From assembly GCA_000002445.1 (NCBI GenBank), contig CP000071.1:2112001-2176000 (forward strand): a DNA stretch of 64,000 nucleotides. The letters run 5' to 3'. Every line of letters begins with the position of its first letter. The stretch's first letter is position 1. The stretch comes from Trypanosoma brucei. Its lineage: Eukaryota. The notes under the pieces are model-generated. The model was not told where the DNA came from, did no database searches, and was given only the letters and a program-made list of their open reading frames with translations. Shown one piece after another: positions 2,116-22,342 of this stretch. The position numbers and the translations under genes are program-made.

Positions 2116-3820
2116 GCCCCGAAGGACTTCAACCTCAGCAAAGGCATCATGAGGCGAACCCAAACCTACCGTTTCCACCTCGGCACGGTTCGCGTCATGA
2201 CTGGGCGGTAACGCACAGCCGGTGCGGGGCTCAACAAACGGCTAGACACAAAGTACGGAGGGGCTGCAACGGCTGGTGCGGTTCATGCAAGCGATGATGA
2301 CTACTAGGGCTGCGCGCTTTGCACGCCACACATGGTTTCACCAGCGGGGTGATCATACAGCTCAAGCAACCAAAAGGGGTGTCAAATGGGCCGCATCTTG
2401 TTTTGGGGTGGAATGTTGTCCAAGTTTAGTTGATAATGGCCGATCCAGTGTCAGCTCCACTCTCGCTGGAAGCTGCAAGATTTTTGCCAACCATCGTTGG
2501 GCCTGTCGTTGCAGCAGATCGAATGTTTTTAATTAGCTAACGGCATGCGCTGTGAGATATAATGTGGGCTCGGGGATGGCTCTATCGTTTGCAGTTGAAT
2601 GGTGTACTAATTTATCTTACCTGGTGTCAGGGGATGACATGACTTCTTCGGAACCTGTCCGTATGATAAAACACGGTTTTTGTAACGTCGGGTGATTTGA
2701 TATTTGGGGTAGCGTTGGGTGTTGGGAACCTTCTTCCGTTTTACCACTCCTATCGTTCAAAGCTGGGGTCGTCTTGTGGGTAAGGCTTGATATGAACATT
2801 TGGTGCCACAATCGGGTTGTCCGCAGCAGCACCAGCGTCACAGTGCACAGTTTCCTCCCCCTATTTAAGGGTTCTAGTCATTTATAAAATACCGCTGGCA
2901 TCGTTCTTATCAACAGACGCGCTTCTTTGGCCAACACTTTTGAAACCTATGTGCCAGAGACACTGTAATGAAGTGTCTTGTAATCGTGGCTGCGATCCTT
3001 GAGGTATATTGCTTACGCAGTTATGTTGCTTATGCTGGGTTTTGCGCATGCGAACACCGCATCAAAGCCTTAGTGGGGGGTTTCGCTTCCTGTTCTATAG
3101 TAGACTTTGCTTGGAAAAACTTCTTTCGAACTGTACTCCTTCCTGGACTTAATGGTTATTCTGACACCGACCGTTATGTTCTTTTTTTTTTTGCTTCGGT
3201 TATAAATAGGTAATTCCATACTCTGGTCACTGGCGAATCTGATTAGTAAGATCTAGATCTCTTTAGACAAGTGATTTTTTATCAACTAACTGCGAGTGTT
3301 AAGATAGCAAAAAGAAAAAAGGGGGTTTTGCGTTAAGCTATACATTTTTCTTTTAGCTACCTCTCACGCCACATGTCCCACTTGTGGCTGGTAATTACAA
3401 CTTTGTCGTTGAAGCTAACTAATTTTACCTTGGTATCGTGAAATGTGCTGGAGAATCATGTACGTGCATCCACTTGTTTGGGCATTATTGGGGTTAGGGA
3501 GGGGTCTTGTCACTTACGTGTTCTTTTTGCGGAAGCAACTGTCTTATGCTTGCTCGATAAATAAGTATTTATTCGGAGACTTTCCGACATCTCTCGATAA
3601 TGAAATATACGCTTGTTTGGGTCTGTGGAATGGTGACCGTTTTCAAAAGTTGGTCCGTTGATTGTCGTTTCCACCAGTGCTGTCACAGGGGATATTTAAC
3701 ACGCTTACTTTCGTTCGTCGCCCGTCATGGGGAGGGCATTCGTGCAAAAGTAACTAAGTGCTTTTCAGAGGCTTTGATTGATTTTTATCATTTGGTGTTG
3801 TTGTTTTGGGAGACCTGTTA

Positions 3821-3935
3821 ATATCCATATTACTAGGGAAATTTTGTGTTGTTTTCGGTATTACCTACTATTATTGTCTACATATTTTTTTAACTGTCTT
3901 TCTCTCCTTACTCCACATTTTTTCACGTGTGCTAC
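3821..3935 (+). promoter_or_regulatory. polypyrimidine/T-rich tract, probable trans-splicing acceptor signal for the 4043..7066 gene
   Basis: T/C-rich run (ttttgtgttgttttcggtattacctactattattgtctacatatttttttaactgtctttctctccttactcc) followed by AG dinucleotides, immediately upstream of the most plausible ATG. This is the standard kinetoplastid SL-addition signal arrangement. Confidence 0.45.
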
Positions 3936-4042
3936 TAAATCTTAAAATAGCGGTCAGAGAGACATCATCAGCCACGCACCCTCGTTTACTGTGGCGTGTA
4001 CGCAGACCCTCAGAACTGGCTGGGTATTATGTACCCGGACAG

Positions 4043-7000
4043 ATGCTTCTGTGCCGTCCCGAGCGGTGTTTCACCTCTCCACCTGAAAAAAGTCAAGGTG
4101 ACCGAGATGTTGCAACTACAGCTTTCCCTGGTCCTTATCCGAAGGTGAAGCGGAGCCACGCCAATCGCCACCATGGCACTACAAGATGTGGGGGAACGAG
4201 CGCATTAGATGCCGCTGAACTATCAAGGTTATGTTTAACACTACCTGTGCTTAACGCTGAGGAACACCATGCGGCGCGCAAAGAGATAAAGCGGGTCCCA
4301 TTAGTGCCCGGGCGCAAAGGATACAGTAGTGATGCCGAAGAAAAGGCAATAACTTACCTCCTGAACCATTGTCGTTTCCCTACTGAAGACTGGTGGACAT
4401 CCTTGAGTCTTCTTGCTCGTTGGCGTGAACTACCTCAGCAAAAACTGTTAAAAGAATCCCCTCTGGGCACATCAGCATTGTTCCCAAGACATATGTCAAT
4501 GGCTGCAAGTTCTCAGCTAATGCGATGTCTTTCCTATACCAAGCATGCGTGGGTAGATGTGTTAACTCTGTACGAGACTACAACACGAAATTCAGCGGTA
4601 TTAGGTGAAGTTCATGACGTAAAAGAGGATGATAAGGGCAAAAGTTGCTGTAGTGATGTCAGCCACCAAGCACTCCGCTGGATGCGACATGTGGCACTAA
4701 CGTCGCTTTTAAGTATTGGTCGGTGGAAAGAATCCTTACAGTTTTATCGTCATATGCTGTATCAGCGCGAGATGCCAAGTTATATTTGCACAGGTCATTT
4801 GATACAACGTCTTGGTGAGGTTGGACGGTGGGAACCGGTGTGTAACATTTTCAGTATCAGTCTTAAAATTCTTAAGGACGCTCGGGAGCGTGCCCCAGCA
4901 AAAAAATATCCAGAAGTGGTTACATATTCCTCACAGCAAATGATGTCGCGGGGAACAACCTCGAAAAGGCGAAGTGAGTGGGGTACAATGTTCTCTATGG
5001 CTCTGGACGTTGTATGTCGGTTATGTCATCAGCCTTACGTAGCCAAGTTAATGTTTGATCAGGCATACAGTATGAATGGAAGTGGAGTATTATTTCAGTG
5101 GGATGGCAATTTCTTGTCAGCGGTTCAGGCGTTACATTCAGAAAGGGAAAGGGCTGATATGCTGTGTCGTGCTCGCGCTGCTGGTCAGTTGGACTCCTTT
5201 AAACTTGTGCGCGGTCTTAACCATCACCAAAAGTGGCTGGATGCCATAGCTATATTTGCTGAGGCTGTGGAAACAGGGCAATTGACAAAGAGAGAAGTTG
5301 GGCAGTGTCGATTGAATATTCTTCACGCTAGTAACGTGACTAATATTCAGGGGATCGTGAGCCGTATTCAAGAAATCTGCAAACGCTCAGCGGATTCACT
5401 ACTACTAAATGATGCTGAGGTTGAGTGTGTTTTTTCAAAACATTACAACTTTAAAACGTTCTCGAATGCTTCAGTACCTATGCGAGTATATACCGTGGTC
5501 CCTCATTGGTTGTTTTGTCTCCGGCTTTTGTCGTACAACTATCCGCGATATCTGCTCGAAGATGACAAAGTACCAAGAACGGGGCAAAAACGCCTCCCCA
5601 ACGCCCGTATGATGTCTCTACTTCTCCGTCACTCCATGCCATGGACTGTAGCTATCCGTCTTCTTACTATTGCTCTGAGGCTGGGCGAACATTCAAACAC
5701 AAAAGCAATGGAAGCCACTTCCGATTCGCCCAGTGCAGCTCTAATGGTGAATCACGTCGCGGAAATTCTCTATGCACAAGGGCAAAGAGCCCGTGCGATA
5801 AGTTTGCTGGATTCAGTTTCGCACAGGCAATCGCTGTCTCCGTCCGCAAAAATGCTCGAATGCATACCGCTGACAATGTTGACGGCGGGCGGCAAAACTA
5901 AGGGAGGGACAGGACTAAAGGTTGACAACAAGGTTATTTATCATTATATACAGACAACAACGAATTGGATGCGGGCGCTCTCTGTTATCGAGGCCGTGGT
6001 ATATCAACGATCTTCTTCCACCAATCCTCTCGCTTCTTTACCTGCCTCTGTGCATTGCAGTGTTCTTCAGATGCTGCAACGTTGCTCACTACGAAATGCG
6101 TGGCTGCTTTCGTTTTTTTACTTCAAGTACTCAATGTCTGCAGTGCGGTTATTGGACAAAAAACAAGGGACAGTCCTGTGTCATGATCAACCGCACCTTC
6201 TGCAGAAGGAGGACCTACGTAATACGGTTTACAGCGTCATGTACGAAACCTTGCTGAATATTCTTAAAGCGCTGATTGATGAGTCCGACAAATGTAAAGA
6301 GAATGCGTGTTTCGAACTTGTTAGCGCTGTCATGACATTTTGCGGAGGGCGTGTTCCTGCGCATATGTTGCTTCCTAATCAAATGGATCGCCTTCTTCCA
6401 CGTGCAGCTGGTGCATTCAACACAGTACATAACGTGGAGCTGCGTGTGCGAATAGGGTTGAAACTTGTGCAGAGTGTTATTGAGCTTCTTTCGAAAGAGG
6501 TGAAGAAACAAAGGGGAAATTGTCGTGATAGCGACGTATTGTCTCTTGCCGTCATGTTCCACGGGTTGCAGAAGCTGTTATGCCGGGGGACAGAACACAA
6601 CCGGCGTATCCGATATACCGATGAGCTTTTACAACTCGGTTCCCCTCAACCGACACCCCACATGGGAGGTAGAGGAACAATAATGCAGGGGAAGCCTACC
6701 ACCTGCGGTGTGGAGGACAGTGTGCTGTGGCGGTATTCCCTTGAGTTGCTTGCTTTGCAGTGCGAGTGGTGCGGAACGTGCACTATGGCACCTGGAACAT
6801 TGAAACTTGTGTACCGCACGTGCGCTTATTCCGGTGGCCAATGGGGCGCTGCCCTACTCGCTACGCAATATATCCTGATGGAGCAACAACGAGATACAGC
6901 GATGAAGGGGCCGGTGGGACCGGATAACTGTTCCCTTTATTGTTCCCTGTTCGGTTGGGAAAAGGCACTCGGGTTTTGGTCCCTCCACTTCCCACATCGT

Positions 7001-7066
7001 GCACTAAGTGAGGTGCTACCTTATCCCAAGGGCGTAGACTACTGCATGAGCGACACTGAGCGTTGA
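4043..7066 (+). CDS. hypothetical protein, possibly a helical-repeat (PPR-like) mitochondrial protein
   Basis: Long uninterrupted ORF (3806..7066). The first 79 codons overlap a T/pyrimidine-rich tract (3821-3935) and encode an implausible hydrophobic peptide, so the start is probably the ATG at 4043 (MLLCRPERCF..., presequence-like). Internal ~35-aa segments resemble PPR/TPR-type helical repeats (e.g. RWKESLQFYRHMLYQREMPSYICTGHLIQRLGEVGRW). I recognise no enzyme motif. Confidence 0.7.
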   Translation: MLLCRPERCFTSPPEKSQGDRDVATTAFPGPYPKVKRSHANRHHGTTRCGGTSALDAAELSRLCLTLPVLNAEEHHAARKEIKRVPLVPGRKGYSSDAEEKAITYLLNHCRFPTEDWWTSLSLLARWRELPQQKLLKESPLGTSALFPRHMSMAASSQLMRCLSYTKHAWVDVLTLYETTTRNSAVLGEVHDVKEDDKGKSCCSDVSHQALRWMRHVALTSLLSIGRWKESLQFYRHMLYQREMPSYICTGHLIQRLGEVGRWEPVCNIFSISLKILKDARERAPAKKYPEVVTYSSQQMMSRGTTSKRRSEWGTMFSMALDVVCRLCHQPYVAKLMFDQAYSMNGSGVLFQWDGNFLSAVQALHSERERADMLCRARAAGQLDSFKLVRGLNHHQKWLDAIAIFAEAVETGQLTKREVGQCRLNILHASNVTNIQGIVSRIQEICKRSADSLLLNDAEVECVFSKHYNFKTFSNASVPMRVYTVVPHWLFCLRLLSYNYPRYLLEDDKVPRTGQKRLPNARMMSLLLRHSMPWTVAIRLLTIALRLGEHSNTKAMEATSDSPSAALMVNHVAEILYAQGQRARAISLLDSVSHRQSLSPSAKMLECIPLTMLTAGGKTKGGTGLKVDNKVIYHYIQTTTNWMRALSVIEAVVYQRSSSTNPLASLPASVHCSVLQMLQRCSLRNAWLLSFFYFKYSMSAVRLLDKKQGTVLCHDQPHLLQKEDLRNTVYSVMYETLLNILKALIDESDKCKENACFELVSAVMTFCGGRVPAHMLLPNQMDRLLPRAAGAFNTVHNVELRVRIGLKLVQSVIELLSKEVKKQRGNCRDSDVLSLAVMFHGLQKLLCRGTEHNRRIRYTDELLQLGSPQPTPHMGGRGTIMQGKPTTCGVEDSVLWRYSLELLALQCEWCGTCTMAPGTLKLVYRTCAYSGGQWGAALLATQYILMEQQRDTAMKGPVGPDNCSLYCSLFGWEKALGFWSLHFPHRALSEVLPYPKGVDYCMSDTER

Positions 7067-10180: not shown

Positions 10181-11194
10181 ATGGGTTCCGGGGTAGGAAG
10201 ACTCGGAGAGAAAAGCCACGGCCATGAGGGGGGAGTCTTCAGAGGAGAGAACGGTAATAAAACTGACAACACTATCGCAGCCGCTGGAGACAGCGTTGGT
10301 GAAAATGGCCCGCGTCTGCTAGATGGGCTGCCCGCAGTATCGACGGCGAGAGGAAGCAAAATAGCTGAGGACGATGTGGACGCCGACGATGAGGAAAGTG
10401 ACTGTGATGCAAACCAGGATGATAACAGTCGTACGCAAAGGAAGAAGTTGGCACTCATCGTTAACAATGGCGATTGCGCCATTGCCCCAGAAAGTAGCCA
10501 GCAATTCAATGCAGTCCCTTGCACTGACCACCTTCCACAATCTACGCATCCTGCTGGGGGTGAAGAGATGATGAGAGTGCAGCAAACCTCAAACTCCGTA
10601 CCCAATCCCGCAGAAGCAGTGGGTACAGAAACTATCGGTGATAGGGAGCGGACGCGTGACAGTGCTGACTGTCAACTCAGACTAAGTGCCTCACGCCGCA
10701 GGATCACACACGGCAGGGACGATAAATCCAACAGCACAAAGACAGCGCCGTCCTCGGAGTTTATCCTGGAAATGGATAAAACAGCGAACGGCTTATCAGA
10801 CTACCCGAGCGACGGACCTGCACGCTCTAGCACCCAAGTCTCCCTGAGAGAACGAGGGCTGAAAGACATGACGTCGGTGCACAACCCGCAAGCTACACCC
10901 ACAAGCATCCTGCGAAAAAACAGCTGTGAGACGCGTGAGCTATCCCACAACCTGCAGTCGAACGCAAGCGACACAAACACCATCGACGGATCAGATATCC
11001 CCTCGCGAAGCCCCCGAATGGGGCCGTCTCTCCCCGTGTCAACGAACATAAACGATGCTGATATGCTTAGTAGTCACGAGGAGATGGAAGATGACCTACA
11101 GCGCATCTCTGCGTTGATCAGACGTATGCACCAGCAGGGGAATGACCCCCTACCGGGGGAAGCAGGGGGTGCCTCTGTGGGTTACTACCCGTAA
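10181..11194 (+). CDS. hypothetical acidic, Ser/Asp-rich low-complexity protein
   Basis: 337-aa ORF in the same orientation as the flanking genes, with polypyrimidine tracts on both sides. Composition is biased (D/E/S/N-rich) with no recognisable domain. Coding status rests on ORF length and strand consistency. Confidence 0.55.
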   Translation: MGSGVGRLGEKSHGHEGGVFRGENGNKTDNTIAAAGDSVGENGPRLLDGLPAVSTARGSKIAEDDVDADDEESDCDANQDDNSRTQRKKLALIVNNGDCAIAPESSQQFNAVPCTDHLPQSTHPAGGEEMMRVQQTSNSVPNPAEAVGTETIGDRERTRDSADCQLRLSASRRRITHGRDDKSNSTKTAPSSEFILEMDKTANGLSDYPSDGPARSSTQVSLRERGLKDMTSVHNPQATPTSILRKNSCETRELSHNLQSNASDTNTIDGSDIPSRSPRMGPSLPVSTNINDADMLSSHEEMEDDLQRISALIRRMHQQGNDPLPGEAGGASVGYYP

Positions 11195-12083: not shown

Positions 12084-13724
12084 ATGTTACGGCACACGCG
12101 TTTCTCCTTCACGCACCAGCGACCACACCTCGTACATTGGCAGTCGCTCGGCAAAACACATTTCGACGTATGTGTCATCGGCGCCGGTCCCGCTGGCATT
12201 GCGGCAGCCCTACGAGCTGTGGACTACAACAAACGGGTCTGTCTTGTAGAAGCAAAGCGTATTGGCGGTTGCGATCTGTGGAATGGCACACTTCAGTCGA
12301 AAACGTTGTGGGAAATGTCAAATTTTTTGGGGCGCGCGAGGGGAAGTTCCGCCGAACGGGTGTATGGAACTACCATTTCAAATTTTATGGAACTCGACGA
12401 TGAACGCATGCTGCAGACATTGCAAGAGGTGAGCGAGACGCGGGAAAAGCAGGTACTATCTGCCCTCAGCGCCTCTAACGTGGCGTTACTCTACGGTCGC
12501 GCCGCTTTTGCTAGCCCTCATGAGTTAGAGGTCAGTAGCCGCGAGGCAAAGGAGTACCGAACGGTGACGGCTGATTATTTCATCATCGCCACAGGTTCTG
12601 TCCCTGTCACGCAGCCACATGTGCCCGTGGACCACAAGAACGTGGTGACTTCCGATGACCTTATGACGTTACCGCTGCCAAAAAGCATGGTAGTGGTGGG
12701 TGGCGGCGCGCTTGGCAGTGAATTCGCGACGACATACGGCAGGCTTGGTAAGACCAAGGTGTTTCTACTAGACAAGAAGGAGCGCATAATGCCGAAGGAA
12801 GATGATGATGTGGCAGCAACGATACAGAAGGGAATGGAAAAGCATGGCGTAGAGGTGCACCAAGATTGCTTGCTGTACAGCTTACAATCACTGACCAAAA
12901 GTGAGAGTGATGGCCAGGAGACACCAAATGACGGCACCTCGGGGAATGGAGTTCGCTATACCATCATGCACCGCAAGACACATGAACTTCAGACGTACGA
13001 AGTGGAGCGGGCCCTCATCGTGACTGGGCGCCGACCGAATTACTTCGGACTGGGCCTACGTAATACTAACTGCGAAGTGCGCGACGGGGTACTTGTGCTA
13101 GACGAGTTTGGCAGGTGTGTAAACCAAAAACACATTTACGCCGTGGGAGACGCAACAGGTCGTGACAGGTCAGTTAGTATGGGCGAAGCGAAGGGGCGGT
13201 TGGCAGTAGATCATATATACAGTCCACACATAACGGAGCCGCTTCACCCCGACCATTCCAGAATTGTATTCCTAGACACTGCCGTAGCTTCCGTGGGAAA
13301 AAACGAAAAGCAGTGCAGAGAAAAAAATGTATCGTATGTAGTGGCCAAGTATGGGTTTGAACTCTGCAGTCGCAACGTGGCTGCGAGCAACACCGAAGGG
13401 TTTGTAAAAATACTCGCGAGTAATGACAGTAAAAAGACGCTTCTCGGCGTTCACGTAGTGGGATGGAGCGCAAGTACTATCGTAGAGTTCGCTACCGCGG
13501 CGATTCAACGTAAACAGTCGGCATACGAGCTGAGTGAAATGCTCACAGCGTACCCATCCGTTTCACAAGCATTTCTAGAGTGCTTGCGCGTCATATTGGG
13601 CACATCCATGTTAAAACCCGGTACATTCCCCGGTCTCGTCTGCAATACATGGACTCCGTCTGACTGTGAGCGAGGTCGGGGCTATTGTTCGCTGGGAAAT
13701 GCTCAAGGCGGTGGCAAACAATAG
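12084..13724 (+). CDS. FAD-dependent pyridine nucleotide-disulfide oxidoreductase of the dihydrolipoamide dehydrogenase family, predicted catalytically inactive
   Basis: Two Rossmann GxGxxG motifs (DVCVIGAGPAGIAAA; MVVVGGGALGSEFA), the FAD-site HIYAVGDATG motif, and a C-terminal dimerisation region aligning with DLDH (AYPSVSQAF vs AHPTLSEAF). The redox-active CxxxxC is degenerate (GGCDLWNGTLQSK: first Cys retained, second Cys replaced by Thr, near 12270-12290). The catalytic His-Glu dyad is replaced by Tyr-Gln (TAC at 13551-13553). A presequence-like N-terminus and an extra Cys-rich C-terminal tail are present. Confidence 0.85.
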   Translation: MLRHTRFSFTHQRPHLVHWQSLGKTHFDVCVIGAGPAGIAAALRAVDYNKRVCLVEAKRIGGCDLWNGTLQSKTLWEMSNFLGRARGSSAERVYGTTISNFMELDDERMLQTLQEVSETREKQVLSALSASNVALLYGRAAFASPHELEVSSREAKEYRTVTADYFIIATGSVPVTQPHVPVDHKNVVTSDDLMTLPLPKSMVVVGGGALGSEFATTYGRLGKTKVFLLDKKERIMPKEDDDVAATIQKGMEKHGVEVHQDCLLYSLQSLTKSESDGQETPNDGTSGNGVRYTIMHRKTHELQTYEVERALIVTGRRPNYFGLGLRNTNCEVRDGVLVLDEFGRCVNQKHIYAVGDATGRDRSVSMGEAKGRLAVDHIYSPHITEPLHPDHSRIVFLDTAVASVGKNEKQCREKNVSYVVAKYGFELCSRNVAASNTEGFVKILASNDSKKTLLGVHVVGWSASTIVEFATAAIQRKQSAYELSEMLTAYPSVSQAFLECLRVILGTSMLKPGTFPGLVCNTWTPSDCERGRGYCSLGNAQGGGKQ

Positions 13725-14458
13725 GTGGCAAAGCAGCCGATGGTGAGGCAAAGCTGAAAAGCAACCGAGGATATCGGGCGACTCTAAATGTTTGTGGAAG
13801 CACACAAGCCTACGGCCCCGTAAAGGGCCCAAATTGCGGATGGCGTGACTGCTGGATGTTCAGTTACAGCTCTTCCATCGTCATGTGTATACGTTTTAGG
13901 GATATGTGAGAGTACTGTTGTGCGCTGGTCCAAAGCAGATCGCATGAGGGCATAAGATCCAGGACAGTGTATTATTACTTCCCTTCCCTCACCCTCATCC
14001 ATTTTCTTCTTTTTTTACCACCCCTCTTATCAGTGAGTTCATAATCAATCGTCTCCTTCCTTCGAAGGTGAGAGACCTATCGACTCCCTACCTTACCTGT
14101 CTTTCGCCTCTCTGCTTTGTTTCATACCGTGCAGTGTTCTGTATACCGTTATGGCCATGGCTGAAATGCGCGGGGAGGGCGAAATCCTCCCCGCGATAAG
14201 CAGTCATTACCAACGGCAACGGGAAAGAAAGCACGTCATCGTGATATAACTTTGAAACGTCTGCGTGCGGACGTTACAACGATCCAAATGTGTGTGTGGG
14301 TGGGGGGGAGGGACTACCCCGATGTTTGAGTACTCACTATGGCGAGGGCCTCATGCATGATGTTTTATCGGACACACATACACACAAATGAATGTCGTAT
14401 CTTAACCAACTTGTAGGCAGGCGCGCTGTCCTTTAGCCGTTGGAACTACTTTGATTGC

Positions 14459-15000: not shown

Positions 15001-16041
15001 ATGAATTGTCGTGAGATCATAAGGAAGCTTCTGCTCAACCCAGCGCACAACAATGCCGCCACAAGAACTGCCCAAGGAGATAATGGAGACAGTAACCAGC
15101 GGGCGTACACTCGCATCTCACGCCTTGCCGCGTTCCAGAGCGCCCAGACACAAGAAAGCACTCCTAAAACCAATGGAACCGGACGGGCAACGACAGAGGG
15201 GTTAACGGAGGCTGAGGTGCGGTGGTTAGTGATGGAGTCCCGGGCGCTGTTCATGTCGCAGCCGATGCTAGTAGAAATTGCCGCCCCCGTGAGAATTTGC
15301 GGGGATGTGCACGGACAGTACACCGACCTCCTGCGACTCTTCGACTTGGGAGGCTTCCCTCCAGATGCAAATTACATTTTTCTCGGGGACTACGTAGACC
15401 GTGGTGACCAGTCATTGGAAACAATCTGTCTCTTGCTCGCATATAAGTTGAGCTTCCCTGAGACCTTCTTCCTCCTACGTGGCAACCACGAGTGTAGTAG
15501 CATCAACCGTATATACGGTTTCTTCGATGAGTGCAAGAGGCGGTATAGTGTCCGCTTGTGGAAACAGTTCACCGATACTTTCAACTGCATGCCAGTGGCT
15601 GGATTGGTTGAAGGACGTATCCTCTGTATGCATGGTGGGCTCAGTCCCGAACTCACTGATCTCGATCAGATACGTCGCATTCTCCGCCCCACGGACGTGC
15701 CCGATAGTGGACTGATATGCGATTTGTTATGGTCTGATCCCAGCACGAATATGGAGAGTAACTGGAGTGAGAATGACCGCGGCGTGTCGTGGACCTTTAG
15801 TGAGAGTGTCGTGAAGTCTTTCAATAAGAAGTTTGACCTCGACCTCATTTGCCGTGCGCACCAGGTGGTGGACGCGGGTTATGAATTCTTCGCAGCACGG
15901 CAGCTTGTGACAGTTTTCTCTGCGCCGAACTACTGCGATGAGTTTGACAACGCCGGTGCATTTATGTGTGTGGATGAAAATCTGATGTGTAGCTTTGTAC
16001 AGATTGAACCAACACGTACGCTGCTGAGGTACTTCTTTTAG
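15001..16041 (+). CDS. serine/threonine protein phosphatase PP1 catalytic subunit (PPP family)
   Basis: Canonical PPP motifs: GDVHGQ (15301-15318), GDYVDRG (15386-15406), LRGNHE (about 15478-15492), plus LWSDP, SAPNY and RAHQVV. The PP1-like N-terminus (IIRKLLL) contains a roughly 50-aa low-complexity insertion (aa about 15-65) before the conserved core. Confidence 0.93.
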
Positions 16042-16860: not shown

Positions 16861-17044
16861 CTCCCCTTGCATAGGTTAAACCACATACGCGAAGTGTGGA
16901 GAGCGTAGAAACCAAAAAGTGTTGAAAGGGTAAGTAAAATAAACGTTAAAACGCAAGGGGGAATCGAGCACATAACTTCCATTTTCTTTTGCTTTGATAG
17001 GAAACGCTGAGACATTACCGGAGAGGCCAAAAAGTAGTGCAAAC

Positions 17045-20000
17045 ATGTCAGGTGGTGCGGCCCTACCGGTTTCCCAGATGGAGTTGCACAAGGTGAATGA
17101 AGTGCAGTTCGAGATATTTAAGGAGAGGCAAATCAAAAGTTACGCCGTGTGCCTTGTCGAGCACGCCAAGTCGTATGAACGCGGCCGACCAGTCCGGGGA
17201 GGCATCAATGATTTGCGTATGGGTACCACTGACTTCGAATTCGCATGCGAGACATGTCATAGGAAGCACCCAGAGTGCCCTGGACACTTCGGATACATCG
17301 AGCTCGCAGAGCCTGTCTTTAATATTGGCGTCTTCGATCTTGTACTGCAGGTGTTGAAGTGTGTTTGCAAAACGTGCGGGGCTCTCCTCCTTAACACGCG
17401 CGAACAGGACGTACATAAGAAGTTGCAGCACATGACAGGCCTCAACCGTCTTCGGCAAGTTGCGAAGATGGCTGAGGCAAAGTGCCGCGTCTCCACCAGC
17501 ACCGAAGACGATATGGGGATTGACGGCTTTGATAGTGCCCCTTTCAATGGCGGATCAGGAATGGGGCCAGGCGCGACACGGGGTTGTGGTGCGTCTCAAC
17601 CCCGCGTAAGTCGCTTTTATGGTATCTACCCAACACTCGTTATCAAGGCAGTACATGAGGAACAAGACGCCGAGTGGCACGCTGATAAGGTGCGACAGGT
17701 GCTTGACCGCGTGTCCGATGATGATGCTCGCTTGATGGGCTTCGACCCTCAACGTTGCCACCCACGGGATCTTGTGCTCACTGTGCTTCCAGTTCCACCC
17801 CCGCAGGTGCGGCCCGCAATATCCTTCGGCGGTCTCAGGTCAGATGATGAACTCACGCATCAGATCATGTCCATTGTGAAACGCAACAACCAACTACGCA
17901 GGGATAAGGAGTCAGACGTGCAGGCAGCAATTGACCGGAGCCGGGCTTTATTGCAAGAACATGTGGCGACATATTTCAATAACGCTTCCACATACTATAA
18001 GCCAACGAAGGTGAATGACACAAAGAAGCTAAAGTCATTAACGGAGCGCTTGAAGGGGAAGTACGGTAGACTGCGTGGAAATCTAATGGGGAAGCGGGTG
18101 GACTTCTCCGCTCGAACCGTCATCACAGGCGATCCGAACATTGACGTGGATGAAGTAGGTGTACCCTTTTCTGTCGCGATGACGCTTACATTCCCCGAGC
18201 GAGTGAACACAGTAAATAAGAAGCGACTGACGGAGTTTGCCCGGCGCACGGTCTACCCGTCGGCGAATTACATACACCATCCGAATGGCACCATAACAAA
18301 ACTCGCGCTCTTGCGTGACCGCTCCAAGGTGACGCTAAACATCGGTGACGTTGTGGAGAGGCATGTGATTAATGGGGATGTCGTCTTGTTCAACCGACAG
18401 CCGACATTGCATCGCATGAGTATGATGGGCCACAGGGTTCGGGTTCTCAACTATAACACTTTCCGGCTTAATCTCTCTTGTACCACACCATACAATGCTG
18501 ACTTCGATGGTGACGAAATGAATTTGCACGTGCCGCAGAGTCTCTTAACGAAAGCAGAGCTGATTGAAATGATGATGGTTCCAAAGAACTTCGTCTCGCC
18601 CAATAAGTCTGCTCCGTGCATGGGTATTGTGCAAGACAGTCTGCTGGGTAGTTACCGGTTGACGGACAAGGACACATTCCTCGATAAGTACTTTGTGCAA
18701 AGCGTGGCACTTTGGCTGGATCTTTGGCAGTTACCCATTCCCGCCATTCTGAAACCCCGACCCCTCTGGACCGGAAAGCAGGTATTTTCACTTATCCTTC
18801 CTGAGGTTAACCATCCAGCAACACCACAGGACCGGCCCCCCTTTCCTCACAATGATTCCGTAGTGATGATACGACGTGGTCAGTTGTTATGTGGACCAAT
18901 CACTAAGAGTATCGTTGGTGCTGCACCGGGATCACTCATTCACGTTATATTTAATGAGCATGGATCTGATGAAGTGGCACGCTTCATCAACGGCGTGCAG
19001 CGCGTGACGACGTTTTTCTTACTTAACTTCGGTTTCAGCGTTGGGGTTCAAGACACCGTAGCTGACAGTGACACCTTGCGGCAGATGAATGATGTCCTCG
19101 TGAAAACACGGAGGAATGTTGAAAAAATTGGTGCGGCTGCCAACAACCGTACACTGAACCGCAAGGCTGGTATGACACTTCTGCAGTCATTCGAAGCAGA
19201 TGTCAACAGCGCACTGAACAAGTGCCGCGAAGAGGCAGCAAAGAAGGCACTGAGCAACGTCCGTCGCACTAACAGCTTCAAGGTGATGATTGAAGCGGGC
19301 AGTAAGGGTACAGATCTGAACATATGTCAAATTGCCGTCTTTGTTGGGCAACAAAACGTCGCGGGAAGCCGTATTCCATTCGGTTTTCGTAGGCGCACGC
19401 TTCCACACTTTATGCTTGACGATTATGGTGAGACGTCACGCGGCATGGCAAACCGTGGTTACGTTGAGGGTCTGAAACCGCACGAGTTTTTTTTCCACAC
19501 AATGGCTGGTCGTGAGGGTTTGATCGATACTGCGGTGAAAACCTCTGATACAGGCTACCTGCAGCGTAAGCTTATCAAGGCGCTAGAAGATGTCCACGCA
19601 GCCTACGACGGTACTGTGCGAAATGCAAACGATGAACTAATTCAGTTTATGTACGGTGAAGACGGTCTTGACGGGGCCCGTATAGAGGGTGGGCAGCTGT
19701 TCCCTCTTCCCTTTCGGGACGATAAGGAGATGGAAGACACGTACAAATATGAGTACGACGTGGATGGCACCTTCAGTGGGAAGGTTGGTGGTAACTATAT
19801 GGATCCCCACGTTAGGAAGATGCTACGCGCTGATCCCCAAAATGTTCGGAAACTTCAGGAAGAATATGAACAGCTTACGGCGGACCGCGAGTGGTCACGC
19901 AAAATGCTTGACCTCGAGGATCGTGATAAACTGAAGCTTAACCTCCCTGTTAATCCAGGTCGACTTATCCAAAACGCGCGCAGTACTATGGGCAAACGTA

Positions 20001-22342
20001 GTCAAGTGTCCAACCTGAGCCCCATCACTATTATCGACCACGTGCGGAAACTTCAAGAAGATCTCATGAAACTCTTTCCATCTTACCACCGGGGAGGGGA
20101 TGGATACATCAGGAATACGTTGAGTCGTGAGCGCATTGAAAGTGCGCTTACTCTCTTCAACGTTCATTTGAGGCAGCTACTTGCGTCAAAAAGGGTGCTG
20201 AAGGAATATAAACTTAACGATAGGGCTTTTGAGTATCTTCTCAAGGAAATTAGAACCAAGTACCACCAGTCACTCACCACGCCGGGTGAGAACATTGGGG
20301 CAATCGCTGCGCAGTCGTGTGGTGAACCTGCCACACAAATGACACTTAACACGTTCCACAATGCGGGAATTTCCTCAAAGAACGTTACCCTCGGTGTGCC
20401 ACGTTTACTGGAGCTTCTAAACGTCTCACGAAACCAAAAGCACGCGAGCATGACAGTGTCTCTGTTTCCACCATATGATGAAAAGCGAAATGCGCAAAAG
20501 GCCCAGCATCTCATTGAATACTGCACGCTGGAGAGTATCACAAGGCGCATACAGTTCATCTACGACCCTGACCCACGTCACACCGTTGTGGAGGCTGATC
20601 GTGACATCCTAGAACTAGAGTGGAATGTTATGGATGAAAGCGATGCAGAGCTAAGAATACAGGAGGTAGTGGCAGGTTCGCCATGGGTGGTGAGGTTGGA
20701 GCTCGACGTGGATATGGTCACCGACAAGGCCCTCGATATGAAGGATGTGAAGCAAGCTATCCTGCGAGTGGATGAAAGCTACATAATTGAAACGGGAATG
20801 GCTAACAATGTGCGCCAGCGGACCATAAGAATGCGGTCCAGATATAACGAAGGAGCTGACTCGATCCCACAGCTTAAGCGTGAAATCCCAGCCCTTCTTG
20901 CGCGGGTTCACTTGCGTGGTATTCCCGGTGTGCGTCGGGCGCTGCTGAAGGACACCACCGAATTCACTGTAGATCAGGCAACGGGGAAAATGAGTGGCAA
21001 CAAAATATGGGCAATAGACACGGACGGCACGGCATTGCGACGTGCTTTTATTGGTGTCGTAGGTGAGGATGGTAAGAACATTATTAATGCGGTGAAAACG
21101 AGTAGCAACAAAGTGCCTGAGGTATGTAGTCTTCTTGGTATTGAGGCGGCGAGATCAAAGATGTTGACGGAACTTCGTGAGGCTTACCTGGCCTATGGTC
21201 TCAATATTAACTACCGCCACTATACTATACTGGTGGATACGATATGTCAGCATGGGTACCTGATGGCTGTTTCTCGCTCAGGAATCAACCGCTCCGATAC
21301 GTCGGGTCCGTTGATGCGCTGTTCATTTGAAGAAACTGTTAAGGTGCTTATGGCGGCTGCATCTTTTGGCGAGTGCGATCCCGTGCGTGGGGTATCAGCA
21401 AATCTTGTGCTCGGTAACCAAGCGCGCGTTGGTACGGGGCTTTTCGATCTTGTTCTCAACATGGCAGCGCTGCAGCAGGCTGTACCGCAGGCAGAAGCGG
21501 TTGCACCCGGAAAGGATGTAAATGTGTATCACAGTCTCGGGTCCACGCTGCAGCAAAATATCCAATCCTCCATTGCGTACCGACCAAGAGATCATGATGC
21601 AACACCGTTTGTAAACAATGCCAGTCTGTTTCTCCGCCAGGGTTTCGGTGGGGGGTCCTCCTCCGCACCAGTAACGGCCTCGGCCCCATACAACCCTTCG
21701 ACGACGTACCACGGCGGTCGGCTCGAAGCGAGCGCAGTGCACAGGAGTCAAGCTTATTCTACATCCCCCGCTTTGGAATACGGAGGGCGGGAAGCAAGCG
21801 CCTCACAAATGTACAGCGTTATGTCTTCCGCCAGCGCGTTCAACCCAGTTTCAACGCGGATGTCGTCAGTGGCACACAGTTATTCCGAATACAGTGAAGC
21901 CTCTTCTTACCACCTGCAACACAGCGTGGCGCCAACTTCCATGCAAGCTTCACTACCAAGAACCGACAACTCTATGACCATGCAAGGTATCGGTAGTGTT
22001 TCAGTACCGTACACGCCCCATGCCATGTCCAGTGCTGCCCCACCGTCGCAGGTATACGCCAGCACAGAAGTCGGCCGGTCGCACAGCGAGGACTCGCGGT
22101 CCCAGTCAGCTCTCTACGTTCCGACACTCTCACCCACCCACGCGGGTTACGCTATACGAGGTGATGAGCCATCCACACATCGTAGTGACTCAAATGTCAT
22201 GTGGCGGGAGGCTGGCGGGGGAAGGGAACAGGATGAGGAAGATGACCTCTCCACGAATTATATGCCCACTGCAAAGACACCCCAGCAGGTGGCACCGCCG
22301 ACAGCCGCAGAGTTTGGGGACGAGGAAGAGGAAGAACAGTAA
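17045..22342 (+). CDS. RPB1: DNA-directed RNA polymerase II largest subunit (RPB1)
   Basis: 1765-aa product from the ATG at 17045 (MSGGAALPVSQMEL...); the 6-frame ORF begins 17 codons upstream at 16994. It has the zinc-binding N-terminus (CETCHRKHPECPGHFGYIEL), the catalytic NADFDGDEMN Mg-binding motif (about 18490-18530), and conserved trigger-loop and cleft regions. The C-terminal approx. 290 aa are S/Y/P/A-rich without YSPTSPS heptads and end in an acidic EFGDEEEEEQ tail, as in trypanosomatid RPB1. Confidence 0.97.
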   Translation: MSGGAALPVSQMELHKVNEVQFEIFKERQIKSYAVCLVEHAKSYERGRPVRGGINDLRMGTTDFEFACETCHRKHPECPGHFGYIELAEPVFNIGVFDLVLQVLKCVCKTCGALLLNTREQDVHKKLQHMTGLNRLRQVAKMAEAKCRVSTSTEDDMGIDGFDSAPFNGGSGMGPGATRGCGASQPRVSRFYGIYPTLVIKAVHEEQDAEWHADKVRQVLDRVSDDDARLMGFDPQRCHPRDLVLTVLPVPPPQVRPAISFGGLRSDDELTHQIMSIVKRNNQLRRDKESDVQAAIDRSRALLQEHVATYFNNASTYYKPTKVNDTKKLKSLTERLKGKYGRLRGNLMGKRVDFSARTVITGDPNIDVDEVGVPFSVAMTLTFPERVNTVNKKRLTEFARRTVYPSANYIHHPNGTITKLALLRDRSKVTLNIGDVVERHVINGDVVLFNRQPTLHRMSMMGHRVRVLNYNTFRLNLSCTTPYNADFDGDEMNLHVPQSLLTKAELIEMMMVPKNFVSPNKSAPCMGIVQDSLLGSYRLTDKDTFLDKYFVQSVALWLDLWQLPIPAILKPRPLWTGKQVFSLILPEVNHPATPQDRPPFPHNDSVVMIRRGQLLCGPITKSIVGAAPGSLIHVIFNEHGSDEVARFINGVQRVTTFFLLNFGFSVGVQDTVADSDTLRQMNDVLVKTRRNVEKIGAAANNRTLNRKAGMTLLQSFEADVNSALNKCREEAAKKALSNVRRTNSFKVMIEAGSKGTDLNICQIAVFVGQQNVAGSRIPFGFRRRTLPHFMLDDYGETSRGMANRGYVEGLKPHEFFFHTMAGREGLIDTAVKTSDTGYLQRKLIKALEDVHAAYDGTVRNANDELIQFMYGEDGLDGARIEGGQLFPLPFRDDKEMEDTYKYEYDVDGTFSGKVGGNYMDPHVRKMLRADPQNVRKLQEEYEQLTADREWSRKMLDLEDRDKLKLNLPVNPGRLIQNARSTMGKRSQVSNLSPITIIDHVRKLQEDLMKLFPSYHRGGDGYIRNTLSRERIESALTLFNVHLRQLLASKRVLKEYKLNDRAFEYLLKEIRTKYHQSLTTPGENIGAIAAQSCGEPATQMTLNTFHNAGISSKNVTLGVPRLLELLNVSRNQKHASMTVSLFPPYDEKRNAQKAQHLIEYCTLESITRRIQFIYDPDPRHTVVEADRDILELEWNVMDESDAELRIQEVVAGSPWVVRLELDVDMVTDKALDMKDVKQAILRVDESYIIETGMANNVRQRTIRMRSRYNEGADSIPQLKREIPALLARVHLRGIPGVRRALLKDTTEFTVDQATGKMSGNKIWAIDTDGTALRRAFIGVVGEDGKNIINAVKTSSNKVPEVCSLLGIEAARSKMLTELREAYLAYGLNINYRHYTILVDTICQHGYLMAVSRSGINRSDTSGPLMRCSFEETVKVLMAAASFGECDPVRGVSANLVLGNQARVGTGLFDLVLNMAALQQAVPQAEAVAPGKDVNVYHSLGSTLQQNIQSSIAYRPRDHDATPFVNNASLFLRQGFGGGSSSAPVTASAPYNPSTTYHGGRLEASAVHRSQAYSTSPALEYGGREASASQMYSVMSSASAFNPVSTRMSSVAHSYSEYSEASSYHLQHSVAPTSMQASLPRTDNSMTMQGIGSVSVPYTPHAMSSAAPPSQVYASTEVGRSHSEDSRSQSALYVPTLSPTHAGYAIRGDEPSTHRSDSNVMWREAGGGREQDEEDDLSTNYMPTAKTPQQVAPPTAAEFGDEEEEEQ

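What the first reader, a model, noticed from the sequence alone, without database searches (positions are those of the whole stretch)
12084..13724. Dihydrolipoamide-dehydrogenase paralogue with every catalytic residue substituted (C..T instead of CxxxxC; Tyr-Gln instead of His-Glu)
The fold is clearly class-I flavoprotein disulfide reductase (two GxGxxG motifs, FAD-site GDATG, dimerisation domain). However, the redox-active disulfide is broken (GGCDLWNGTLQSK, second Cys replaced by Thr). The C-terminal base pair that activates the disulfide is AYPSVSQAF instead of AHPTLSEAF. Both changes at once indicate a dead enzyme retained for another role (scaffold, FAD/NADH sensor, or moonlighting subunit) rather than a sequencing error. 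It also carries a presequence and an extra Cys-rich C-terminal tail (CNTWTPSDCERGRGYCSLG). I recall TriTryp annotation of a DLDH 'point mutation' gene next to RPB1, which this would match.
Basis: partly seen in the sequence, partly recalled or inferred. Interest (0 to 1): 0.6.

Follow-up and report, generated by a model that had tools for sequence, protein, structure and literature searches.

The report
Cysteine-less lipoamide-dehydrogenase-like mitochondrial flavoprotein
This Trypanosoma brucei gene encodes a mitochondrial protein with the lipoamide dehydrogenase fold but without its catalytic cysteine pair and His-Glu dyad; it is already annotated and belongs to an old, strongly conserved cysteine-less family that also occurs in bacteria, so it is more likely a working flavoenzyme with different chemistry than a dead copy.

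Summary
The ORF at 12084-13724 (+), 546 aa, is real. It has a confident class-I flavoprotein disulfide reductase (FDR) fold, with lipoamide dehydrogenases (LipDH) as the best matches. All four LipDH catalytic positions are replaced: Cys to Asp64, Cys to Thr69, His to Tyr490, Glu to Gln495. The one cysteine in the loop (Cys63) sits one residue out of register and varies among homologues.

[quoted passage not shown] RPB1 lies 3.3 kb downstream.

The substitutions are not recent decay. 111 euglenozoan homologues, in at least three kinetoplastid paralogue groups including GCVL-1, all carry Asp64 and Tyr490. 64 bacterial relatives also lack both cysteines but keep His-Glu. All share a C-terminal extension with a conserved Cys500.

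FAD and NADH fingerprints are at least 97% conserved. The former disulfide loop is the most conserved stretch of the protein. The protein is detected in procyclic cells as part of the mitochondrial importome.

E. coli SthA and M. tuberculosis LpdA are active enzymes with similar losses, and a Leishmania paralogue is reported to be active.

The gene is known by annotation and of modest interest.

The parts
12084..13724 (+). Complete CDS: 546 aa, 60.014 kDa, TAG stop at 13722-13724. Orthologue of Tb927.8.7380.
   Evidence: ORF list and translation. 99.6% identical to the T. b. gambiense protein P0001. The mass equals that listed for Tb927.8.7380/Q57YU0.
12084..12161 (+). N-terminal presequence-like region (aa 1-26, MLRHTRFSFTHQRPHLVHWQSLGKTH).
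   Evidence: 9 basic (R/K/H) and no acidic residues. Orthologues start with MLR(R) but are otherwise poorly conserved, mean 0.26. TargetP-positive and in the ATOM40-dependent importome in PMC5436138.
12180..12197 (+). FAD-binding GxGxxG (G33-G38). Glu56, the FAD ribose ligand position, follows at 12249-12251.
   Evidence: G33/G35/G38 are invariant and E56 is present in 174 of 175 family members.
12264..12302 (+). Former redox-disulfide loop GGCDLWNGTLQSK (aa 61-73). Asp64 (12273-12275) and Thr69 (12288-12290) occupy the two catalytic Cys positions. Cys63 (12270-12272) is out of register. Lys73 is the conserved flavin-N5 lysine position.
   Evidence: Gap-free alignment to LipDH sequences. D64 in 111/111, W66 in 106/111, K73 in 108/111, C63 in only 19/111. 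Most conserved 13-aa window of the protein, rank 1 of 496.
12699..12773 (+). NAD(H)-binding fingerprint GGGALGSE (aa 206-213) and the acidic residue Asp230 at the end of the second strand (12771-12773).
   Evidence: G206/G208/G211/E213 are invariant or nearly so. Position 230 is D or E in 175 of 175 family members. An acidic residue here is the classical marker of NAD over NADP preference (established knowledge).
12885..12974 (+). Lineage-specific insertion or surface loop (aa 268-297) relative to LipDH.
   Evidence: Gap in the alignment to 1dxl. pLDDT 63-65 in the model. Conservation 0.21.
13134..13160 (+). FAD-site motif IYAVGDATG (aa 351-359).
   Evidence: G355 invariant; D356 in 174 of 175.
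13260..13577 (+). Dimerisation (interface) domain (aa 393-498). It contains AYPSVSQ (13548-13568), with Tyr490 in place of the catalytic His and Gln495 in place of Glu.
   Evidence: Pfam PF02852, 1.1e-18. Y490 in 110/110 euglenozoan sequences; Q495 in 91/110; bacterial relatives have H and E.
13578..13721 (+). Family-specific C-terminal extension (aa 499-546) beginning ECLRVILGTSMLKPGTFP, with conserved Cys500 (13581-13583). The T. brucei-specific tail cysteines lie at 13641-13694.
   Evidence: The QEC.R.LLG.S..KP..F motif is shared by the bacterial and euglenozoan clades and absent from LipDH, SthA, LpdA and Gor. C500 is present in 108/110 and 59/62 sequences. Modelled with pLDDT 86-96 up to about aa 530. 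Tail cysteines are not conserved.

Best explanation
The gene encodes a mitochondrial, probably homodimeric, FAD- and NADH-binding flavoprotein. It belongs to an old disulfide-less branch of the class-I flavoprotein disulfide reductase superfamily.

It cannot run the classical LipDH relay (NADH to FAD to Cys-Cys disulfide to lipoamide, assisted by His-Glu of the partner subunit), because all four relay residues are replaced.

Most likely it is still redox-active. NADH would reduce the flavin on the re face. The electron acceptor or donor would then react directly with the flavin, either at the NADH site in ping-pong fashion as in SthA and LpdA, or in the si-face pocket vacated by the disulfide. 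That pocket is now lined by the invariant Asp64, Trp66, Lys73 and, from the partner subunit, Tyr490.

The physiological substrate is not known. Candidates are a quinone or another small oxidant, or weak direct turnover of lipoamide.

Shown: the fold, the substitutions, the conservation pattern, expression and mitochondrial import. Inferred: cofactor binding, dimer geometry, redox activity and the nature of the acceptor.
For: Fold:
- The AlphaFold2 model has pLDDT 91.8.
- It superposes on LipDH structures with target-normalised TM 0.92-0.95.

Cofactor sites under LipDH-like constraint across 175 family members:
- Both GxGxxG motifs, E56, K73, E213, D356 and an acidic residue at position 230 are at least 97% conserved.

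The replaced active site is conserved, not drifting:
- D64 is present in 111/111 sequences, W66 in 106/111 and Y490 in 110/110.
- The loop at 61-73 is the most conserved 13-aa window, 0.89 against a core mean of 0.60, rank 1 of 496.

Coupled replacement:
- D64 always occurs with Y490.
- G64 occurs with H490/E495 in the bacterial clade.
- There is one intermediate among 196 sequences.

Purifying selection:
- 7 synonymous and 2 non-synonymous differences against T. b. gambiense.
- 40-86% identity across kinetoplastids.

Expression and location:
- 18 unique peptides and 48% coverage in procyclic cells.

Precedents for active enzymes with similar losses:
- E. coli SthA has C....T and Tyr.
- M. tuberculosis LpdA has A....C, Tyr and no Glu. 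It is an NAD(P)H quinone reductase.

Same-family paralogue:
- Leishmania GCVL-1 (LdBPK291950.1) is reported to be catalytically active but 'not classical' (PMC11949353 citing PMID 29466712 and 32750477).
- Family membership of the GCVL-1 group was shown here.
Against: - No activity data exist for this orthologue group.
- The primary papers on the Leishmania paralogue could not be read. Their assays and controls are therefore unverified.
- High conservation of the loop could reflect only its packing against the isoalloxazine ring.
- FAD and NADH binding alone would also suit a non-catalytic sensor.
- Bacterial loci gave no operon partner that hints at a substrate.
- The Asp64-Tyr490' contact is inferred from LipDH geometry. 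It was not measured, because only a monomer model was available.
Confidence: 0.55

Rival explanations
1. Pseudoenzyme. The protein keeps the fold, and perhaps FAD/NADH binding, but has no catalytic turnover. It would act as a scaffold, a redox or nucleotide sensor, or a structural subunit of a mitochondrial complex.
For: - All four canonical catalytic residues are replaced.
- The score is below every curated NCBIfam cutoff.
- A conserved extra C-terminal extension could be an interaction module.
- No substrate can be named.
Against: - Active precedents with similar losses exist: SthA and LpdA.
- The substituted site is the most conserved part of the protein, and the replacing residues are invariant.
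- The flavin-tuning K73-E213 pair and the NAD-ribose acidic residue are kept in at least 97% of 175 sequences.
- Bacterial members keep the His-Glu dyad without any cysteines, which argues for chemistry at that site.
- A Leishmania paralogue is reported to be active.
Confidence: 0.22
2. It still serves as an E3 (lipoamide dehydrogenase / acetoin dehydrogenase E3 component) for lipoylated complexes, as the database name implies. The dihydrolipoyl dithiol would reduce the flavin directly, without an enzyme disulfide.
For: - LipDH is the closest family by profile score and by fold.
- The database names say so.
- A secondary report states that Leishmania GCVL-1 acts on the same substrate as the true LipDH, with lower activity.
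- Small residues (Ala/Thr69, and Gly64 in bacteria) could open space next to the flavin. This point is inference.
Against: - The defining CxxxxC and His-Glu are absent.
- TIGR01350 scores 283 bits against a cutoff of 408.8.
- None of the three bacterial loci examined sits next to E1 or E2 genes.
- T. brucei has a canonical LipDH, Tb927.11.16730.
- The NJ tree groups the family with LipDH in only 2% of bootstraps.
Confidence: 0.12
3. It is a soluble NAD(P) transhydrogenase of the SthA type that supplies mitochondrial NADPH.
For: - It shares with SthA a Thr at the flavin-proximal Cys position and Tyr in place of His.
- SthA is the second-best NCBIfam hit at 226 bits.
Against: - The score is far below the SthA cutoff of 465.
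- SthA's retained Cys and Glu are absent here.
- Position 230 is D or E in 175 of 175 sequences, where E. coli SthA has Asn. This disfavours binding of the NADP 2'-phosphate (the Rossmann rule is established knowledge).
- Grouping with SthA is not supported, at 20% bootstrap.
Confidence: 0.07
4. It is a decaying pseudogene or an assembly or sequencing artefact.
For: The chromosome-4 duplicate (Tb927.4.5050) is described as undergoing pseudogenisation (PMC2212663).
Against: - The ORF is intact.
- The ratio of synonymous to non-synonymous differences against T. b. gambiense is 7:2.
- The same residues occur in all orthologues.
- 18 unique peptides were detected by mass spectrometry.
- The window shows the single-copy arrangement that PMC2212663 describes for chromosome 8, with no second paralogue present.
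Confidence: 0.01

Closest known systems
Dihydrolipoamide dehydrogenase (E3, EC 1.8.1.4; TIGR01350; e.g. 1dxl, 6uzi, T. cruzi 2qae)
   Same: Four-domain class-I FDR fold, target-normalised TM 0.92-0.95. Both Rossmann fingerprints, the GD motif, the Lys-Glu pair at the flavin and the interface domain are present. It is the best-scoring family by sequence profile.
   Different: No CxxxxC (Asp64, Thr69) and no His-Glu (Tyr490, Gln495). It has a roughly 45-aa C-terminal extension with Cys500 and an insertion at 268-297. The score is 283 bits against a cutoff of 408.8. It does not group with LipDH in the tree, at 2% bootstrap.
Soluble pyridine nucleotide transhydrogenase SthA/UdhA (E. coli b3962; PDB 9n4y)
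   Same: A disulfide-less class-I FDR that is catalytically active. It has Thr at the flavin-proximal Cys position and Tyr in place of the catalytic His.
   Different: SthA keeps the first Cys and the Glu. It has Asn rather than an acidic residue at the NAD-ribose position and no C-terminal extension. The window protein scores 226 bits against a cutoff of 465.
M. tuberculosis LpdA (Rv3303c; PDB 1xdi), NAD(P)H quinone reductase
   Same: A LipDH-like fold lacking a complete disulfide and the His-Glu dyad (GGAAVLDDCVPSK, VYPSLSG), yet an active flavoenzyme that contributes to virulence (PMC9213004). It is the weakly supported nearest outgroup in the NJ tree, at 55%.
   Different: LpdA keeps the second Cys. 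It lacks Asp64, Trp66, the QSK context, and the EC...KP..F C-terminal extension. The window protein scores 204 bits against a cutoff of 479.
Kinetoplastid GCVL-1 (Tb927.3.4390; L. donovani LdBPK291950.1) and Tb927.4.5040, paralogues in the same family
   Same: They share the GGAD[LF]WNGALQSK loop and the C-terminal W.P....RGR tail, at 43-50% identity to the window protein. Both T. brucei paralogues are also in the mitochondrial importome. The Leishmania enzyme is reported to be active and 'not classical class-I'.
   Different: They form separate orthologue groups. GCVL-1 is shorter at about 505 aa. Leishmania GCVL-1 is reported to lack a targeting signal and not to be mitochondrial. No biochemical data were found for the Tb927.8.7380 group.
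Uncharacterised bacterial 'NAD(P)/FAD-dependent oxidoreductase' clade (e.g. P0067 from Myxococcales, P0097 from Polyangiaceae, P0069)
   Same: No catalytic cysteines (GGAGxxxGALSSK). Same C-terminal QEC.RMLLG.S..KP..F extension with Cys500. 35-41% identity. It forms a 100%-supported clade with the euglenozoan sequences.
   Different: Gly instead of Asp64. It retains HPHP...E, the His-Glu dyad. It lacks the W.P....RGR.Y tail and the presequence.

Membership tests
Class-I flavoprotein disulfide reductase superfamily (fold level) | FAD domain, NAD domain and C-terminal dimerisation domain, with two GxGxxG fingerprints and a GD motif | tested here: met
   Pfam PF07992, PF00070 and PF02852 are all above cutoff. 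AlphaFold2 pLDDT 91.8. Foldseek target-normalised TM 0.92-0.95 to LipDH structures.
Dihydrolipoamide dehydrogenase (E3, TIGR01350) | Redox-active CxxxxC next to the flavin | tested here: not met
   GGTCLNVGCIPSK aligns without gaps to GGCDLWNGTLQSK, giving Cys to Asp64 and Cys to Thr69.
Dihydrolipoamide dehydrogenase (E3, TIGR01350) | His-Glu acid-base dyad (HxxxxE) in the interface domain | tested here: not met
   AHPTMSE aligns to AYPSVSQ, giving Tyr490 and Gln495.
Dihydrolipoamide dehydrogenase (E3, TIGR01350) | Score at or above the curated equivalog cutoff | tested here: not met
   282.9 bits against a cutoff of 408.8. Family members P0069, P0097, P0166, P0135 and P0035 are also below cutoff.
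Dihydrolipoamide dehydrogenase (E3, TIGR01350) | Binds E2/E3BP and re-oxidises lipoyl domains of 2-oxoacid dehydrogenase or glycine cleavage complexes | not testable with these tools
   Three bacterial loci show no E1 or E2 neighbours, which is weak negative evidence only.
Soluble transhydrogenase SthA (NF003585) | Single retained Cys (CxxxxT), Tyr-x4-Glu, and a score above the cutoff | tested here: not met
   The Cys position is Asp and the Glu position is Gln. 226 bits against a cutoff of 465.
Soluble transhydrogenase SthA (NF003585) | A site able to take both NAD(H) and NADP(H) | tested here: inconclusive
   Position 230 is D or E in 175 of 175 family members, against Asn in E. coli SthA. 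This suggests NADH preference but is a sequence-rule inference.
LpdA-type NAD(P)H quinone dehydrogenase (NF005883; Rv3303c) | Score above the cutoff; AxxxxC loop; Tyr with no Glu | tested here: not met
   203.6 bits against a cutoff of 479. The loop and the C-terminus differ.
Disulfide-less LipDH-like family (kinetoplastid 'DLDH point mutation' / Tb927.4.5040 / GCVL-1 plus bacterial relatives), defined here | No Cys at either catalytic position; L70, S72, K73 and W76 context; C-terminal extension E-C-x-R-x-L-L-G-x-S-x-x-K-P with Cys500 | tested here: met
   Motif tables. The clade has 100% bootstrap support.
Euglenozoan subclade of that family | Asp64 with Tyr490 (usually Gln495), Trp66, and the W-x-P....R-G-R tail | tested here: met
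   D64, W66, Y490, Q495 and WTPSDCERGRGY are present in the window. The subclade has 100% bootstrap support.

The most novel reading that the evidence does not exclude
The kinetoplastid 'point-mutation DLDH' / Tb927.4.5040 / GCVL-1 proteins and their bacterial relatives would form a functionally undescribed class of FDR-fold flavoenzymes. In this class the substrate enters the cavity left by the lost disulfide and reacts directly with the flavin. An acid-base pair was re-invented twice: His-Glu is kept in bacteria, and Asp64-Tyr490' arose in Euglenozoa. A family-specific C-terminal lid carrying Cys500 would cover the site. Three or more paralogues would then supply a so far unassigned NADH-linked redox activity in the trypanosome mitochondrion.
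Probability: 0.3. Interest if true: 0.55.

Novelty: already known. Interest (0 to 1): 0.3.

Why it matters
T. brucei imports at least three cysteine-less LipDH-like proteins into its mitochondrion alongside one canonical LipDH. All of them carry database names (DLDH, GCVL-1, acetoin dehydrogenase E3) that imply an activity their active sites cannot support in the classical way.

Metabolic models and drug-target lists already count them as LipDH (PMC2927427). A recent Leishmania study invokes GCVL-1 as a possible back-up for the deleted true LipDH (PMC11949353).

It therefore matters to recognise that they belong to a separate, ancient, disulfide-less family with its own invariant residues. This corrects annotation, guides interpretation of knockouts, and points to a testable, unassigned mitochondrial NADH-linked activity.

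The finding does not reveal a new kind of system. Disulfide-less FDR enzymes (SthA, LpdA) are established, and this gene's mutated active site is already flagged in its name.

Tried and rejected
- **Literature on the gene.** Searches for the gene IDs and product names gave only lists and the chromosome 4/8 duplication paper. No functional study of Tb927.8.7380 turned up.
- **Papers not held.** The two primary papers on Leishmania LdBPK291950.1, and one DOI tried from memory for a T. brucei LipDH paper, are not in the library. Activity claims for GCVL-1 rest on a secondary citation.
- **Bacterial gene neighbourhoods.** Three loci show no shared partner and no E1 or E2 genes, so there is no functional hint.
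- **Deep phylogeny.** NJ with 200 bootstraps resolves the family at 100% but not its sister group: MtLpdA 55%, SthA 20%, LipDH 2%. A first attempt timed out.
- **Fold search against afdb50.** This was meant to give taxonomic spread, but the library is unavailable.
- **Second copy or relic.** A search of the window for the tandem paralogue found none.
- **Read-through of the stop.** A tblastn alignment appeared to extend past the stop, but translation shows multiple stops and nothing recognisable.
- **Cys63 as a shifted remnant of the catalytic Cys.** Rejected: the flanking GG and G....SK anchors leave no room for a shift, and the residue is Ala in most homologues.
- **The Cys-rich tail as a MerA- or TrxR-like C-terminal redox centre.** Rejected: those cysteines are absent even in T. 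congolense and T. vivax.
- **Lateral gene transfer.** LmjF.31.2650 and Tb927.8.7380 appear in the gene list of a Leishmania LGT study. Their status there could not be resolved from the main text.
Full report
**1. What is in the sequence**

A 546-codon ORF runs from an ATG at 12084 to a TAG at 13722-13724 on the + strand.
- The best solved relatives are lipoamide dehydrogenases, LipDH (1dxl E 6.6e-50; T. cruzi 2qae 2.6e-43), followed by mercuric reductases, soluble transhydrogenase, glutathione reductases and Rv3303c LpdA.
- An AlphaFold2 model built on a 93-sequence alignment is confident: pLDDT 91.8, pTM 0.88.
- The model superposes on LipDH structures with target-normalised TM 0.92-0.95.

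So the fold claim stands.

**2. The catalytic positions**

HMMER and MAFFT align the loop without gaps. LipDH GG(T/V)CLNVGCIPSK matches the window's GGCDLWNGTLQSK.
- The two redox cysteines therefore correspond to Asp64 and Thr69.
- The window's only cysteine in the loop, Cys63, lies one position upstream.
- Cys63 is Ala in 76 of 111 close homologues and Cys in only 19.
Both cysteines are gone.
- In the interface domain, AHPT(L/M)SE corresponds to AYPSVSQ, giving His to Tyr490 and Glu to Gln495.

The title statement 'every catalytic residue substituted' is correct.

**3. Identity and context**

- The protein is 99.6% identical (2 differences) to the T. b. gambiense DAL972 protein named 'acetoin dehydrogenase e3 component, putative'.
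- The T. congolense orthologue is named 'dihydrolipoamide dehydrogenase, point mutation'.
- Its computed mass, 60.014 kDa, equals that tabulated for Tb927.8.7380/Q57YU0.
- Downstream lie a PP1-type phosphatase (15001-16041), RPB1 (16994-22342) and calreticulin (22955-24142). The same gene order is seen in the gambiense record.
- PMC2212663 describes this locus as part of the chromosome 4/8 duplicon. The chromosome-4 duplicate Tb927.4.5050 is decaying, and the tandem partner has been lost from chromosome 8.
- Consistent with this, no second copy or relic is present in the window.

**4. Not decay but a family trait**

I examined 196 homologues collected in two database searches, plus the E. coli and M. 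tuberculosis reference sequences, and found three groups.

(a) 111 euglenozoan sequences.
- They comprise at least three kinetoplastid paralogue groups: the Tb927.8.7380 type, the Tb927.4.5040 type, and the GCVL-1/Tb927.3.4390 type.
- They also include environmental sequences. The two contigs examined (P0052, P0054) have kinetoplastid-like gene arrays.
- All have GG-x-D-[LF]-W-[ND]-G-[AT]-L-Q-S-K and A-Y-P.
- Asp64 is present in 111/111, Trp66 in 106/111, Tyr490 in 110/110 and Gln495 in 91/110.

(b) 64 bacterial sequences.
- Examples come from Myxococcales and Polyangiaceae, and from a contig with Bacteroidota-type secretion-tail genes.
- They have GGAGxxxGALSSK, so no cysteine either, but retain HPHP...E.

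(c) Canonical LipDHs, with CxxxxC and HxxxxE.

Groups (a) and (b) also share a C-terminal extension, QEC-x-R-x-LLG-x-S-x-x-KP-x-x-F, that is absent from LipDH, SthA, LpdA and Gor. It carries a cysteine (Cys500 in the window) conserved in 108/110 and 59/62 sequences.

In an NJ tree with 200 bootstraps:
- the euglenozoan clade has 100% support;
- its union with the bacterial clade has 100% support;
- grouping with LipDH has 2%;
- grouping with MtLpdA has 55%.

The deep branching is unresolved by this crude method. No family member reaches any curated NCBIfam cutoff. No solved structure lies inside the family.

**5. Is it a dead enzyme?**

Several observations argue against this.

- *Cofactor sites.* The residues that hold and tune the cofactors are kept as strictly as in LipDH. 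Both GxGxxG motifs, Glu56, Lys73 with Glu213, Asp356, and an acidic residue at position 230 at the end of the NAD-domain second strand (D or E in 175/175) are all conserved.
- *The former disulfide loop.* It is the single most conserved 13-residue window of the euglenozoan clade, at mean 0.89 against 0.60 for the core, rank 1 of 496. This is level with the Rossmann fingerprints.
- *Coupled replacements.* Asp64 always occurs with Tyr490, and Gly64 occurs with His490/Glu495, with one intermediate. In LipDH the catalytic His of one subunit faces the interchange Cys of the other (established structural knowledge). The Asp/Tyr pair would therefore meet across the dimer interface. This is an inference and was not measured.
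- *Bacterial members.* They keep a His-Glu dyad with no disulfide to serve, which suggests acid-base chemistry on something else at that site.
- *Selection.* It is purifying, with 7 synonymous and 2 non-synonymous differences against T. b. gambiense.
- *Expression.* In procyclic T. brucei the protein was identified with 18 unique peptides and 48% coverage. It fell 0.72-fold on ATOM40 knockdown (p 0.012). It was classed in the ATOM40-dependent mitochondrial importome, as were Tb927.4.5040 and Tb927.3.4390 (PMC5436138 Supplementary Data 2-3).
- *Precedents.* E. coli SthA has GGGCTHWGTIPSK and NYPTMAE. M. tuberculosis LpdA has GGAAVLDDCVPSK and VYPSLSG. Both are active flavoenzymes. LpdA is an NAD(P)H quinone reductase that contributes to virulence (PMC9213004). 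His to Tyr is thus a recurrent feature of FDR enzymes that abandoned the disulfide relay.
- *Paralogue.* PMC11949353 reports, citing Chiranjivi and Dubey 2018 and 2020, that Leishmania GCVL-1 is catalytically active, though less so than the true LipDH. [quoted passage not shown] I showed that the GCVL-1 group carries the same GGAD[LF]WNGALQSK loop. I could not read the primary papers.

**6. Most likely mechanism**

Shown:
- the fold;
- loss of the relay residues;
- conservation of the cofactor sites and of the re-modelled pocket;
- expression and mitochondrial import.

Inferred:
- The protein is a homodimeric FAD enzyme that is reduced by NADH. The acidic residue at 230 argues for NADH rather than NADPH.
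- It passes electrons directly from the flavin to an acceptor, with no dithiol-disulfide step.
- The acceptor site is either the nicotinamide site (ping-pong, as in SthA and LpdA) or the si-face cavity lined by Asp64, Trp66, Thr69, Lys73 and Tyr490'.
- The C-terminal extension (pLDDT 86-96 to about residue 530) may cover the old lipoamide channel.
- The substrate is unknown. A quinone or other small oxidant, or slow direct lipoamide turnover, are the leading candidates.

I put 0.55 on 'redox-active, disulfide-independent flavoenzyme', 0.22 on pseudoenzyme, 0.12 on a non-classical but genuine E3, 0.07 on transhydrogenase and 0.01 on pseudogene or artefact.

**7. Presequence and tail**

- Residues 1-26 have 9 basic (R/K/H) and no acidic residues, and start with MLR as in the orthologues.
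- Together with the TargetP call and the importome data, a mitochondrial presequence is well supported.
- The tail segment W-T-P-x-x-x-E-R-G-R-G-Y is conserved across kinetoplastid paralogues.
- The three tail cysteines (C520, C528, C535) are not conserved: T. congolense has SGLERGRSYCAAN and T. vivax has PGYERGRAHCGV.
- A MerA- or TrxR-like C-terminal redox centre is therefore unlikely.
- The conserved cysteine is Cys500, upstream of the tail.

**8. Novelty and verdict**

- The gene is already annotated with exactly this caveat.
- Disulfide-less FDR enzymes are a known kind.
- A paralogue has been studied biochemically.

What the analysis adds is the family picture:
- the bacterial relatives;
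- the coupled Asp64/Tyr490 switch;
- the shared C-terminal extension with Cys500;
- the fact that database names such as GCVL-1 and 'acetoin dehydrogenase E3' rest on fold similarity only.

Interest is modest (0.3). The substrate and role of three imported paralogues remain an open and testable question.

Noticed in passing
window 13581-13583 (Cys500) and 12171-12173 (Cys30): Two cysteines are family-specific and highly conserved although the catalytic pair is gone. Cys500 is present in 108/110 euglenozoan and 59/62 bacterial sequences and is Ala in LipDH. Cys30 is present in 106/111 and 54/64. Whether either is near the flavin or the other is unknown.
   Followed up: partly
P0067-P0103, P0165-P0195 (bacterial homologues; loci L008-L010): Bacterial relatives lack both catalytic cysteines (GGAGxxxGALSSK) yet keep the His-Glu dyad (HPHP...E). 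NCBI names them only 'NAD(P)/FAD-dependent oxidoreductase'. They reach no NCBIfam cutoff and have no conserved gene neighbours in three loci.
   Followed up: partly
P0135, P0138, P0140, P0143 (GCVL-1 group; Tb927.3.4390 type): Proteins annotated as GCVL-1, the glycine cleavage system L protein, carry the same cysteine-less loop GGAD[LF]WNGALQSK. The name probably over-states what is known. PMC11949353 treats GCVL-1 as a possible back-up for the true LipDH.
   Followed up: partly
P0109 (462 aa, metagenomic): An SthA-like protein that groups with E. coli SthA at 93% bootstrap has no cysteine at all in the loop (GGAGLQTGTIPSK), with NYPTLAE. Even SthA's single retained Cys seems dispensable in some relatives.
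   Followed up: no
P0005-P0008 (T. theileri, T. conorhini, T. rangeli and an unnamed relative) versus window 13722-13991: Orthologues from non-African trypanosomes (stercorarian and T. theileri-type) carry a further 70-90 aa acidic or coiled C-terminal extension ending in PGSFF. It is absent from T. brucei, T. congolense and T. vivax. The window sequence after the stop shows no recognisable remnant.
   Followed up: partly
P0035 (T. b. gambiense, 605 aa, Tb927.4.5040 type): This protein has about 24 extra N-terminal residues before an internal M(I/L)R start that aligns with the starts of its orthologues. The annotated start is probably too far upstream.
   Followed up: no
window 16994-22342 (+): The RPB1 ORF as listed starts at a TTG and gives 1782 aa. 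The called gene in a near-identical public assembly is 1765 aa, so the real start is probably a downstream ATG.
   Followed up: no
window 25644-28223 (+): An 859-aa ORF has a TerD-domain match (E 1.5e-12, aa 314-437), a domain best known from bacterial tellurite-resistance proteins.
   Followed up: no
window 57670-61254 (+) and 58591-61230 (-): A 1194-aa ORF is almost fully overlapped by an 879-aa antisense ORF. This suggests strongly biased or repetitive coding sequence.
   Followed up: no
window 3806-7066 (+) and 10181-11194 (+): Two ORFs upstream of the gene, of 1086 aa and 337 aa, have no Pfam match at E <= 1e-5. The 337-aa ORF is also called as a gene in the two public assemblies.
   Followed up: no
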